A stretch of 64,000 bases of DNA from Eledone cirrhosa (GCA_964016885.1 OZ024746.1:93434001-93498000), one strand, 5' to 3'; shown: positions 41,085 through 60,435, counted from the first letter of the stretch. Program-made: numbers and translations. Notes: generated by a model from the letters alone, not told the origin.

Positions 41085-41148
41085 TATTTTATTATATATA
41101 TTTCAAGGGCAACCAAGCAATATTGGTGCGCTTTCATCAGATAAAATA
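41085..41148 (-). ncRNA. Type-I HHR (family D)
   Basis: Reverse complement reads TATTTTAT-CTGATGA-AAG cgcaccaa..ttggttgcc CTT-GAAA-TATATA-TA-ATAAAATA, with an 8-bp stem I. Confidence 0.8.
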
Positions 41149-41541
41149 CAAGATTTGTTTTATAAATAATTGTTTCTACTTTTTGGCACAAGGCCAGCAA
41201 TTACCCAGTGCATTACTGGTACTTTATTTTATCGACCCCGTAAGGATGAAAGGCAAAGTTAACCTCAGCGGGATTTGAACTCAGAATGGCAAGGGCCGTA
41301 ACTCTATGCATCAAAGCATGCCGTCCGACCCTATGACATACCTATGGAAATCAACCTTAACGGAAATCAACCTTAATATCTTGGTATATATATATATATA
41401 TATATATAAATGGAAAGTTATATTTAAAATTGTTGGGTTACAACTAGTAAATATTTATAACTGATATAAAAGCACTCGACAAATATTTGGAGTATATTTA
41501 CAATATTAAATAAATGGAAACTATATTTATAAAACCATATT

Positions 41542-41607
41542 TATTTCATTATATATATTTCGGGGATATCATATTAACAATATGCTATGCCTTCCTCAGA
41601 CAAAATA
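41542..41607 (-). ncRNA. Type-I HHR (family D variant)
   Basis: Mirror image of 41715-41780 within the inverted repeat 41499-41618 / 41704-41823. Confidence 0.75.
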
Positions 41608-41714
41608 CAATATAAACAATATAAACATATGACTGCCAGCTTAAACCTCTTCAAATGGAAGTCGGTGTTATAACGGTATGTCGAATCTATTTATCTATAA
41701 AACTGTTTATATTG

Positions 41715-41780
41715 TATTTTGTCTGAGGAAGGCATAGCATATTGTTAATATGATATCCCCGAAATATATATAATGAAATA
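41715..41780 (+). ncRNA. Type-I HHR (family D variant)
   Basis: TATTTTGT-CTGAGGA-AGG catag CATATT gtt AATATG atatcc CC-GAAA-TATATA-TA-ATGAAATA. Confidence 0.75.
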
Positions 41781-41875
41781 AATATGGTTTTATAAATATA
41801 GTTTCCATTTATTTAATATTGTATATATATATATATATATATATATATATATATATATATATATATATATATAAA

Positions 41876-41993
41876 ATTGAAAAAGTGGAGAATAACATGG
41901 TCAACAGTACAAAAAAGGGGATTTATTGAAAAAATTTATTTAAATAAATCTCCTTTTTTGTACTGTTGACCATGTTATTCCTCACTTTTTCAA
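41876..41993. repeat. Palindrome at the end of a TA-embedded element
   Basis: attgaaaaagtg..gatttatt against aataaatc..cactttttcaat. Confidence 0.85.
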
Positions 41994-42321
41994 TATTATT
42001 ACTCCAAGATAAACTTACATAGGAATGCAAGAGAACTCATAAACTCGCCACCTACGTAAACCTCTTGTGGAGTCAAACAACGCCGTACGCTTAAACTATC
42101 CATAATACAAAGTATTCACAACCTCTAACTGGATTACCTATAACGATATTTTGTTATCCCTTATATATATATATATATATATATATATATATATATATAT
42201 ATATATATATATATATATATATATATATATATATATATAAGCATTTAAAATCTATCCAGGTAAAACTTGAACCGTTAAGGTCTCATTCCTGGATATGTCA
42301 ATATTTATAAAACAAGCTTTG

Positions 42322-42363
42322 TATTTTATCTGATGAGTGCGTACCAAAGTTTTGGTACGCCTG
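42322..42363 (+). ncRNA. Family D HHR truncated by microsatellite
   Basis: TATTTTAT-CTGATGA-GT-GCGTACCAA agtt TTGGTACGC-CTG followed by (TA)n. The GAAA half is missing. Confidence 0.6.
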
Positions 42364-57677: not shown

Positions 57678-58069
57678 CAAGGGTAATCCCAAAAGTAAGC
57701 TCTCCAAAGCGATGGGGACACAGAGAATCTGTTCGTATGGCTGTTGGCAACACTGTTGTGATTGGTGCTTCCTTCACTCCCAAACAAGCATGCGCGCGCT
57801 TCGCTTGGATGCTCAATCTTGGCTTGGCAGCCGTTGAGAATGGAGCTCCCGTTGAACGCTACCGCCAAGTGTAAATTTCGCGCAGTTTATATACGAGAGC
57901 AATCCCAAAAGAAAGGTCTCCTTCCGAGGAAAACATGCGTAAAGATCGGCGGATCACTCTGGATGCTCTCTGCATTTTGGATCCTGAGGTTTCCCGAAGC
58001 ACCATCCACATGATTTTAACGGAAAAGTTGCAATATCGGAAGGAGACCTTACTTTTGGGATTGCCTTCG
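57678..58069 (+). mobile_element. Mariner deletion derivative
   Basis: TIRs caagggtaatcccaaaagtaagctctcc / ggagaccttacttttgggattgccttcg with TA flanks and a third TIR at about 57894-57921. Remnants MELPLNATAKC.FRAV and RITLD..PEVSRSTIHMILTEKLQYRK. Confidence 0.85.
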
Positions 58070-58081
58070 TAAGCGGTGGGA

Positions 58082-58134
58082 GGGACCGTCCTGACGAAGG
58101 CCAGTTAAGCTTGAAATGCATAGACGGTTGTCCC
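58082..58134 (+). ncRNA. Minimal type-I HHR (family H), best-formed copy in the window
   Basis: ACCGTC-CTGACGA-AGGC cagttaa GCTT-GAAA-TGCA-TA-GACGGT, palindromic AUGCAU stem III, stem I extendable with GGGA/TCCC. Confidence 0.85.
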
Positions 58135-58587
58135 CCTTGCTTGTGCTGGACATCACCGGAGGGCGTTAGCCCCCCGGTGTTTGCTAGCTACGGCTTCCTA
58201 AAACCGTATTTCTTTGGAAATACGAAATATTTTTATATATATTATTTTGTTTGACCCGTTTAGCTTGTTCGCTTTTGGGGGTTGAGTGGTTAATGGCTTC
58301 TTAACCATCGTCTCAGTTTTGTATGACCTTTTTAACTTTTGTTTATAGCTCTGGTATCTTCATATCCATAGAGCGCTTGTCAACACAATTCGGAAGTTGC
58401 GTTTCGCTAATTTCTACCCCCTGAAATGCGATTCTCGCTAAATTCATATATATATATATATATATATATATATATATATATATATATATATATATATATA
58501 TATATATATATATATATATATATATATATATATATATATATATATATGGAGGAAGTTATAGTTCACTTGAAGCATTGTGTAATGAGG

Positions 58588-58883
58588 TATAAACGTTTGT
58601 ATATGTATAATAAAGCCAAAACAATGCAGATATGGACATAGAATAAAGAATGCAAATGCAAAAGATATTGTTGACAATTAGTCTTTTGGCAAGCTATTTA
58701 GAACACTGGTTTAACCGCTTTACGTCCCTCCGAAGAAGAGATATTATCTCGAAAATTAAGGACATTTAAATAAATCTAAGGTAAAAGACTAATTGTCAAC
58801 AATATCTTTTGCATTTGCATTCTTTATTCTATGTCCATATCTGTATTGTTTTGGCTTTATTATACATATACAAACGTTTATAT
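58588..58883. repeat. Inverted repeat with arms of about 100 bp enclosing a decayed HHR (58724-58763)
   Basis: 58588-58687 against 58783-58883. The spacer has gtccct-CCGAAGA-AGAGAT att ATCTC-GAAAATT-AAGGAC. Confidence 0.85.
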
Positions 58884-58952
58884 ATATATATATGTATATA
58901 GCTGATGGACAAGAGAAAAGAGAACACAATACTGAAGTAGAGTCTAAATATT

Positions 58953-59100
58953 TATTTATTATGGCTAAGTAGTGAGTCTTATTACTTTGCAGTTTCACCT
59001 GCACACACACAGGAACGCCAGATATCTTGTCTGGCGTTCCTGTGAATGAGTGCAGGTGAAACTGCAGAGAAATGAGACTCAGTACTTAGCTAAAATAAAT
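58953..59100. repeat. Imperfect palindrome between TA tracts
   Basis: Core cacaggaacgccaga..tctggcgttcctgtg with extended flanking arms. Confidence 0.85.
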
Positions 59101-60369
59101 GAATATATATATATATTATATATATATTATATATATATATTATATATATAGATATAGATATATATATATACATGTATTAGAAATTTGGTGCATTTGGAGA
59201 GGAAGAGGAAATGGTATATATACTGCCAATAAAAACACACATCTGTTGGTTTTCACTTCAATTTGTTATAATCTTCCAGTTGGTTAGTTTAATAACCGGA
59301 TGGTTGTTTATTTGTTTATTGTCAAAGCTCTTTCGTCACACATTCTGTGACCTCCTACAGGGATGATTGTTATTTTGTGTCTCTCCTTTGTTCTGTCTTA
59401 CACCATCTTGTTTTTGTAATAAAGTCCCTAGAAGAAGCTGTCTATTTCAGCCTAATTTTTTACTCAACCAGAGGGGAGTTAAGACAAATTATAGAAATAC
59501 GCATACATATAGATACACAAGTATAAACAGATATATATGTGGCGTCCATCCTTTACCAGTTTTGCTCAATGAATAAAAGAATTAAATAAACAAACAATTA
59601 TTCAGTGTTACTTGCCAACTGTCCACCTTTTACTACCCTTCTGGATGACCGTAAAACCACGAGATAATTTTCCCTTTCAAAAATGTCGTGGTAATGGTCA
59701 GTTCAAGGAATTTGTCCTTACTCTGAGGGAGTCTCTGGACAAGCCATAACCTCAGCTTCAGTGCAATTTGATTGCACTTTAGCTGCATACCAGTCACCGA
59801 AACTGCAGTCGAGAATTTGAAAAAAAATTAGGTAAATTTTTATCTATTTATTCTTCACACTTATAATATATATATCATCATCATCATCATATATATATAT
59901 ATATATATATATCATCATCACCGTTTTACATCCGTTCTTCCACGCTAAAATGGGTTAGGCGAGTTGTCCTGTTGTGGGCAGAGTCCAGTCGGCTGACCTT
60001 GTCTTGCTCATACAGGAACTGATTCTGGCTTGATTTCTACAGCTAGATGCCCTTCCTAACACCAACCCCATTTACAGTGAGTGCTGGGTGCTTTTTTGCC
60101 GTGGCGCCTCCACGACCACTTTGCAGTGGGAGGGGGTGGAGGCATATTGTCTATATGCTTCAGCTTCAGCTTGTTCCTGTGGGAAGTCGGGTCTTCTGTA
60201 TTACTGTGTGACGCCAGAGGTCACGGTCGCGTGTCATTGCCCTTGAGAGGTACAATTGGGTAAGGTCGGCTTACATATATATATATATATATATACACAT
60301 ACACACACACACATATATATTTATATACAATATATTAATAAATGGAAACTATATTTATAAAACCCTATT

Positions 60370-60435
60370 TATTTTATTATACATATTTCAAGGGCAACCA
60401 AGGCAAATTATGGTGCGCTTTCATCAGATAAAATA
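60370..60435 (-). ncRNA. Type-I HHR (family D)
   Basis: Reverse complement reads TATTTTAT-CTGATGA-AAG cgcacca..tggttgcc CTT-GAAA-TATGTA-TA-ATAAAATA. Confidence 0.8.

What the first reader, a model, noticed from the sequence alone, without database searches (positions are those of the whole stretch)
41085..60435. Family D ribozyme stem II shows compensatory variation between copies
Seen: stem II differs while pairing is kept: GCACCA/UGGUGU (54134, 57444), GUACCAAA/UUUGGUAC (54303), GCGUACCAA/UUGGUACGC (42322) and CAUAUU/AAUAUG (41715). Stem I varies only through G-U-compatible changes (UAUUUUAU with AUAAAAUA, AUGAAAUA or AUAGAAUA). The core boxes are nearly invariant. Inference: structure was selected in the source elements, which is the best internal evidence that the motif is a real ribozyme and not AT-rich noise.
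Basis: partly seen in the sequence, partly recalled or inferred. Interest (0 to 1): 0.7.

Follow-up and report, generated by a model that had tools for sequence, protein, structure and literature searches.

The report
Hammerhead stems selected in Penelope retroelements
These motifs are leftover end pieces of a very abundant Penelope-type jumping gene; the paired stems of their hammerhead-shaped RNA were kept intact while the parent elements evolved and decay at random in the inserted copies, so the parents likely use a self-cutting RNA, a known arrangement.

Summary
The nine motifs at 41085-60435 are 3' ends of a Hydra-clade Penelope-like retroelement (PLE). Two non-overlapping patterns find 47,739 and 22,582 copies, controls 0. 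The motif lies 1-2 kb behind an RT + GIY-YIG ORF and flanks full-length units. On a tree built without the tested columns, 24 of 28 stem II changes on internal branches keep pairing, against 17 of 39 on tips. The four variable pairs rank 1-4 of 561 column pairs, but none is significant alone in my R-scape-like test. Inserted copies decay at about 1.3% per site, core included. Extra features: a never-paired C in stem II and a loopless palindromic stem III that predicts dimer cleavage. Hammerheads in Hydra PLEs are published (PMC8557442), and this scan noted the same family elsewhere in this genome. Cleavage is untested.

The parts
41085..41148 (-). Complete hammerhead motif, bulged stem II subfamily; long-tail PLE end running to about 40945
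41542..41607 (-). Hammerhead motif (N7=G, A.C at first stem II pair); long-tail arm of inverted pair 41410-41830
41715..41780 (+). Identical hammerhead motif; short-tail arm of the same inverted pair, ends in (TA)n
42322..42363 (+). Truncated piece: stem I 5' strand, CUGAUGA and a perfected stem II; no GAAA, stem III or cleavage site
54134..54198 (-). Hammerhead motif, short-tail arm; chimeric (stem II of another subfamily inside the flanks of its partner arm)
54303..54366 (+). Hammerhead motif, long-tail arm: stem I 54303-54310/54359-54366, core 54311-54317, stem II 54318-54346, GAA 54347-54349, palindrome 54350-54357, predicted cut after A54358
   Evidence: the cut site is inferred from the hammerhead consensus
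54633..54697 (+). Hammerhead motif with a stem-breaking change at pair 7; short tail into (TA)n
57444..57508 (+). Hammerhead motif with core mutation U4A; long tail; insertion 57364-57647 between (TA)n tracts
60370..60435 (-). Complete hammerhead motif, short tail; the opposite arm (60534-60610, +) holds only the long-tail segment

Best explanation
The motifs are 5'-truncated 3' ends (pLTR pieces) of a high-copy Hydra-clade Penelope-like retrotransposon, and each carries a type I hammerhead fold whose stems were kept paired in the source lineages and which likely cuts the element's RNA, predicted to work as a dimer. Shown: copy number, position behind an RT + GIY-YIG ORF, tandem and inverted insertion structure, pairing kept on inherited changes, random decay after insertion. 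Inferred: a transcript running through two pLTRs about 3.5 kb apart (or two RNAs) pairs the 8-nt palindromes into an intermolecular stem III, completing two cores that cut after AUA and release unit-length element RNA. The RT/endonuclease then nicks (TA)n and copies the RNA from one of two start points about 45 or 135 nt past the cut site, often onto both DNA ends, which would give the back-to-back pairs. Window copies are passive remnants.
For: Order of elements matches a type I hammerhead. N7 is the core position that varies between subfamilies (U149, C12, A12, G7 of 180; the other core letters were fixed by the pattern); freeing C3-A6 adds only 5.2% more copies. 15 stem II signatures shared by two or more loci pair in 88 of 90 cells, shuffle mean 77.6, 0 of 100,000. 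Internal versus terminal contrast and G-U bias. On 53 aligned copies, 94.3% of cells pair versus 88.8% shuffled and 36-55% slid; RNAalifold recovers stems I and II unprompted. Stem III stays self-complementary: AUAUAUAU, AUAUGUAU, AUGCGCAU (88 of 100 listed), AUACGUAU (3 of 100); none folds as a monomer hairpin. A same-strand motif lies 1.0-2.0 kb behind the endonuclease in 14 of 20 loci with ORF hits. L152 has tandem motifs 3,489 nt apart plus an inverted one; L153 has an uninterrupted 735-aa ORF with RWR, DKT, CxCX5C, CxxC and CxH, the Hydra signature of PMC8557442 section 11.
Against: No cleavage data. Rfam finds no hammerhead even at E 10. Pfam finds no RT or GIY-YIG family in the ORF pieces at E 1, so clade assignment rests on motifs and on reading the published alignment by eye. 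No pair is individually significant in my R-scape-like null (E 0.10, 0.44, 1.4, 2.2), pairs 1 and 7 rank 308 and 261, and the inner stem III pairs rank 28 and 125; the palindrome switch rests on few independent events. Two of five measures did not beat shuffles (86/500, 474/500). One abundant subfamily has A.C at the first stem II pair (12 of 138 copies). Single-copy folding z-scores are modest (-0.3 to -2.9) and the antisense strand scores as well or better. In the anole PLE, ribozyme cleavage was not needed for insertion in vitro and needed protein (PMC11167929).
Confidence: 0.85

Rival explanations
1. The fold is selected as an RNA structure, but mainly as a binding or folding signal for the element's protein at the pLTR; self-cleavage is slow, protein-dependent or dispensable.
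For: Unpaired C kept at stem II position 4 in all 15 shared signatures; subfamily with A.C closing pair; weak A-U-rich stem III duplex (-2.2 to -3.2 kcal/mol for the common forms); low in vitro activity of PLE hammerheads (PMC4209133) and dispensability in vitro (PMC11167929).
Against: The catalytic boxes are kept across subfamilies whose tails and loops have diverged, and N7, the position known to be free in catalysis (recalled), is the one that varies.
Confidence: 0.1
2. The apparent compensation is made at DNA level: template switching perfects short inverted repeats, and gene conversion swaps whole stems between nearby copies.
For: 5 both-side changes map to tips.
Against: Template switching would erase the C.C mismatch, yet it is unpaired in 138 of 138 copies. 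Inherited changes go through G-U rather than A-C (13:2), an asymmetry a DNA process would not give. Tips, where DNA-level processes act, show no such bias.
Confidence: 0.04
3. The motif is AT-rich noise, or a non-autonomous tandem retrozyme unrelated to a coding element.
For: No Rfam hit; no ORF remnant attached to the window copies.
Against: More than 70,000 matches against 0 controls; fixed position behind the PLE ORF; neighbouring motifs are mostly back-to-back pairs (20 of 37 adjacent pairs), not 170-400 nt head-to-tail arrays as in PMC7229834.
Confidence: 0.01

Closest known systems
Hammerheads of Hydra-clade PLEs, incl. Hydra-1_Obim (Craig et al. 2021, PMC8557442; seen: passages, section 11, supplement part 2 and search hits)
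   Same: Type I hammerhead near the 3' end; RT with C-terminal GIY-YIG; RW(K/R), DKT, CxCX5C, CxxC and CxH motifs; (TA)n insertion; inverted 5'-truncated copies; optional tail; short palindromic stem III.
   Different: Ribozyme sequence differs from the listed Hydra-1_Obim motif. Unit is about 3.5-3.7 kb with a 1.0-2.0 kb 3' UTR versus generally under 3 kb. Tail is about 90 nt versus 30-40 bp described for PLEs. Stem III has no loop base, whereas the Hydra rows of File S2 have 1-3. Stem II has a fixed C.Y mismatch that no Hydra row shows.
Minimal PLE hammerheads (Cervera and de la Pena 2014, PMC4209133; seen: parts 1-2 of 4)
   Same: In pLTRs, mostly solo or close opposite-strand copies, long helix II, palindromic helix III, families full of compensatory changes, dimer model.
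   Different: No extra base between A9 and 10.1; first stem II pair is A-U or G-U rather than G-C; stem I is 8 bp plus a predicted distal helix rather than 4-5 bp.
Repeat-type eukaryotic hammerheads with palindromic stem/loop III (Perreault et al. 2011, PMC3088659; seen: passages incl. legend of Fig. S8)
   Same: Palindrome that pairs fully only in a dimer.
   Different: Here tied to a defined autonomous element and to more than 70,000 copies in one genome.
Poseidon PLE of Anolis (Frangieh et al. 2024, PMC11167929; seen: parts 1-2 of 4)
   Same: Two preferred 3' ends behind the hammerhead; AT-rich targets.
   Different: There the ORF starts inside stem II; here the ATG lies about 185 nt past the motif (L153).
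Metazoan non-LTR retrozymes (PMC7229834, passages; bioRxiv 10.64898/2026.07.22.740005, part 1 of 5)
   Same: Type I hammerhead, PLE connection.
   Different: Retrozymes are short non-coding tandem arrays; these copies are truncated ends of a coding element.

Membership tests
Type I hammerhead ribozyme | CUGANGA and GAAA boxes with NUH site in type I order | tested here: met
   Present in 7 of 9 window copies; AUA site
Type I hammerhead ribozyme | Stems I and II supported by covariation | tested here: met
   significant in aggregate, no single pair at E<0.05 in my own null
Type I hammerhead ribozyme | Stem III able to form | tested here: inconclusive
   No monomer hairpin; self-duplex -2.2 to -10.5 kcal/mol for the six pairing forms; palindrome kept but few independent events
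Type I hammerhead ribozyme | Match to an Rfam hammerhead model | tested here: not met
   No hit at gathering score or at E 10 in 40500-61000; a library match is not part of the biochemical definition
Type I hammerhead ribozyme | Site-specific self-cleavage | not testable with these tools
   Needs an assay or end-mapped RNA reads
PLE minimal hammerhead (Cervera 2014 consensus) | G10.1-C11.1 pair and extra base between 9 and 10.1 | tested here: not met
   First pair A-U 95, G-U 27, A.C 12, G-C 2, U.U 2 of 138; no extra base
Hydra-clade PLE | Single ORF with RT and C-terminal GIY-YIG endonuclease | tested here: met
   735-aa ORF in L153 with YRDD and VVY...YVG; read by eye against the published Hydra alignment; Pfam gave no hit
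Hydra-clade PLE | RWK-type motif, DKT, CxCX5C linker, CxxC and CxH in the endonuclease | tested here: met
   RWR, DKT, CNCRNKSNC, CDLC, CRH in L153 and L158
Hydra-clade PLE | CCHH motif absent | tested here: inconclusive
   Judged by inspection only; no aligned test
Hydra-clade PLE | pLTR tandem or inverted structure, tail, (TA)n insertion | tested here: met
   L090, L152; first (TA)4 at 40-59 nt in 90 and 130-149 nt in 53 of 180 copies
Hydra-clade PLE | Placement in the Hydra clade by RT phylogeny | not tested
   Published proteins were only read in the supplement, not aligned
Non-LTR retrozyme | Short non-coding head-to-tail tandem repeats | tested here: not met

The most novel reading that the evidence does not exclude
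This lineage uses an undescribed hammerhead architecture: the never-paired C three pairs up stem II replaces the loop II contact and docks into the internal loop of an extended stem I, while the loopless palindromic stem III makes cutting strictly dependent on a second copy, so the ribozyme acts as a sensor that releases only RNAs spanning two pLTRs. With over 70,000 copies and dozens of subfamilies, the genome is a natural mutational scan of that fold.
Probability: 0.25. Interest if true: 0.6.

Novelty: new member of a known kind. Interest (0 to 1): 0.3.

Why it matters
What PLE hammerheads do is still open (PMC8557442; PMC11167929). This family separates inherited from post-insertion changes and shows that pairing was kept in the transposing lineages on the sense strand while inserted copies drift, which argues that the fold matters to the element and not to the host. 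The association itself is published, so the gain is a quantified example and two testable features (unpaired C, loopless stem III).

Tried and rejected
Rfam scans: no hammerhead. Pfam on three ORF pieces: nothing relevant. Recurrent GGAG variant loci looked like a hotspot or subfamily; rejected as query bias, since none of the 100 unselected matches shows it and partner arms usually have GGTG. Host selection on inserted copies: rejected; core C3-A6 decays 1.3% per site, like the tail at 1.1-1.6% (tail figure from 77 of 131 copies). Folding energy as evidence: not discriminating. RNA evidence: no RNA holder listed; laying four contig sets gave one 31-nt piece in a guessed-RNA run and could not show ends, so nothing follows about expression. 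My R-scape-like E-values are home-made, not R-scape. Literature: 'hammerhead + C-C mismatch + stem II' gave 0 papers; 'Penelope-like + Hydra clade + ribozyme' and 'hammerhead + octopus + Penelope' gave only PMC8557442 as relevant. These searches cover open-licence PMC and bioRxiv only; the supplements of PMC4209133 (many min-HHR families) were not read and may list similar motifs. A look-up of earlier findings by sequence returned nothing.

Full report
Observation. The window holds nine copies of the motif between 41085 and 60435. Eight have the full frame: stem I 5' strand, CUGANGA, stem II, GAA, an 8-nt palindrome, A, stem I 3' strand. The quoted strings are all present. As evidence of compensation they are uneven. 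42322 has no GAAA, stem III or second stem I strand. CAUAUU/AAUAUG of 41715 is a distal hairpin at positions 9-14 and is not homologous to GCACCA/UGGUGU at 5-10. 57444 has U4A in the core. 54134 is a chimera: of 100 listed copies (175 in all) with its upstream flank, 99 have the other stem II. 41542 and 41715 are two arms of one insertion.

What it is. A pattern that leaves stem II free matches 47,739 times in this 3.0-Gb genome, control 0. A second, non-overlapping pattern for other stem III letters matches 22,582 times. Among 120 fetched loci, 20 had hits to an RT/endonuclease ORF, and in 14 of these a same-strand motif lies 1.0-2.0 kb behind the endonuclease; in most of the others the locus ends first. 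L090 and L152 have two tandem motifs around the ORF, 3.7 and 3.5 kb apart, and L152 also has an inverted copy at its 5' end. L153 has an uninterrupted 735-aa ORF with RWR, DKT, YRDD, CxCX5C, a C-terminal GIY-YIG region, CxxC and CxH. These are the Hydra-clade marks listed in PMC8557442 section 11, and the protein follows the published Hydra alignment when read by eye. Pfam did not recognise it. A protein search scored 77 of 101,322 candidates, many without stops, so the family is young. Copies end at two places, about 45 and 135 nt past the predicted cut, in (TA)n (143 of 180 in four 10-nt bins), and 20 of 37 neighbouring pairs are back-to-back. The window copies carry only the last 60-290 nt of the element.

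Covariation test. From 180 distinct copies I kept 131: I dropped same-locus arms with identical stems and the copies of the subfamily that the query had enriched. The window copies 42322 and 57444 do not match the pattern and are not in this set. Stem II positions 1-7 from each end need no alignment. Pairs 1-3 and 5-7 are paired in 90-99% of 138 copies; position 4 is paired in 0 of 138 (C.C 100, C.U 34). The 15 signatures seen at two or more loci pair in 88 of 90 cells (shuffle 77.6, sd 1.8, 0 of 100,000); the 34 seen once pair in 180 of 204. On a tree built without those 14 columns, 24 of 28 changes on internal branches keep the pair and 17 of 39 on tips do; the neutral expectation is 18-44% (Fisher p 0.0008). 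Forty bootstrap trees give 0.79-0.95 versus 0.41-0.57. Internal changes make G-U 13 times and A-C twice; tips 10 and 13 (p 0.016; a rerun with other ties gave 12:2 and 9:13). Pairs 6, 2, 3 and 5 rank first to fourth of 561 column pairs by G-test with APC, but their E-values under my own R-scape-like null are 0.10, 0.44, 1.4 and 2.2, and pairs 1 and 7 rank low. On a MAFFT alignment of 53 hand-picked copies, three of five measures beat all 500 shuffles and two did not; RNAalifold found stems I and II with the gap at position 4, and no stem III.

Inserted copies drift. Freeing C3-A6 raises the count from 47,739 to 50,349, or 1.3% per site, the same as the non-ribozyme tail (1.1-1.6%). Copies lacking the position-4 C number 2,802, roughly 4% of the combined counts, scattered over subfamilies and often C to T in CpG by my reading of the 100 listed. 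There is no sign of host selection.

Stems I and III. Stem I varies through G-U in the window, but my first patterns allowed only A/G there. Freeing seven U positions adds 4,977 copies, and 4 of the 100 listed have C opposite G at the second pair, a full A-U, G-U, G-C path. Stem III stays self-complementary to its centre: AUAUAUAU, AUAUGUAU and AUGUAUAU in the first set; AUGCGCAU in 88 and AUACGUAU in 3 of 100 listed (counted by eye; 9 others). Only 832 copies break the last palindrome position on a U background, about half of the listed ones still pairing as AUGUGCAU. The central pairs cannot form in one molecule, so their retention predicts a double hammerhead, as proposed for PLE ribozymes (PMC4209133; PMC3088659 Fig. 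S8 legend). This rests on few independent switches and was not significant.

Mechanism. Most likely (0.85): the source element's RNA folds the hammerhead at each pLTR, two motifs pair through the palindrome and cut after AUA to process the transcript, and the element's protein copies the RNA into (TA)n from one of two start points. Position, structure and selection are shown; cleavage, dimer formation and the role in the cycle are inferred. The main rival (0.10) is a selected fold that serves protein binding with little cleavage, in line with PMC11167929. DNA-level template switching and conversion (0.04) explain 42322 and 54134 but not the persistent mismatch or the G-U bias.

Novelty. Hammerheads in PLE pLTRs, their compensatory variation and Hydra-clade examples including an octopus family are published. 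This family differs from the listed Hydra-1_Obim motif and from the minimal consensus (A-U first pair, no extra base, fixed C.Y mismatch, loopless stem III). One search for the mismatch found no paper, which is weak evidence of absence. This scan has already noted the same family and the unpaired C on other pieces of this genome; I reached that reading before the look-up (note). Verdict: real, new member of a known kind, interest 0.3.

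Noticed in passing
window 54134-54198 (-), with 54303 (+) and 54633 (+): A short block covering all of stem II appears copied from another subfamily into one arm of an inverted pair, within 450 bp of a copy of that subfamily: local gene conversion or assembly mosaic.
   Followed up: partly
window about 4060-4110 (-), about 20930 (+), about 29490 (+): A second hammerhead-like repeat with a 5-bp stem II and a short palindrome after GAAA; the two + copies have altered cores.
   Followed up: no
window 40470-40955 (+): 161-aa frame that resembles a Helitron Rep/helicase piece (resemblance recalled; Pfam gave no relevant hit).
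   Followed up: partly
window 18583-19369 (-): Decayed RT-thumb/endonuclease remnant 32-38% identical to the Hydra-type ORF, a different PLE family.
   Followed up: no
window 6351-6408 (-): Weak tRNA match (31 bits), probably the head of a tRNA-derived SINE (interpretation inferred).
   Followed up: no
L121-L150 (G000 C1): Sister subfamily group, about 20,000 copies, with a 12-bp stem II, C.U mismatch and AUGCGCAU palindrome; its CpG sites are mostly intact.
   Followed up: partly
L031-L036, L043, L101, L104; window 41542, 41715: An amplified subfamily has A.C at the first stem II pair and G.A at pair 8 yet spread widely; a natural test of how much ribozyme quality the element needs.
   Followed up: no
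window 41886-41984, 54206-54295, 54523-54590, 58968-59086: Perfect or near-perfect short DNA palindromes, two of them at or next to the truncated 5' ends of these elements; they give spurious miRNA hits in Rfam.
   Followed up: no
window 31999-34342, 23554-23908, 14762-15006: Tandem arrays with 20-, 22- and 81-nt units.
   Followed up: no
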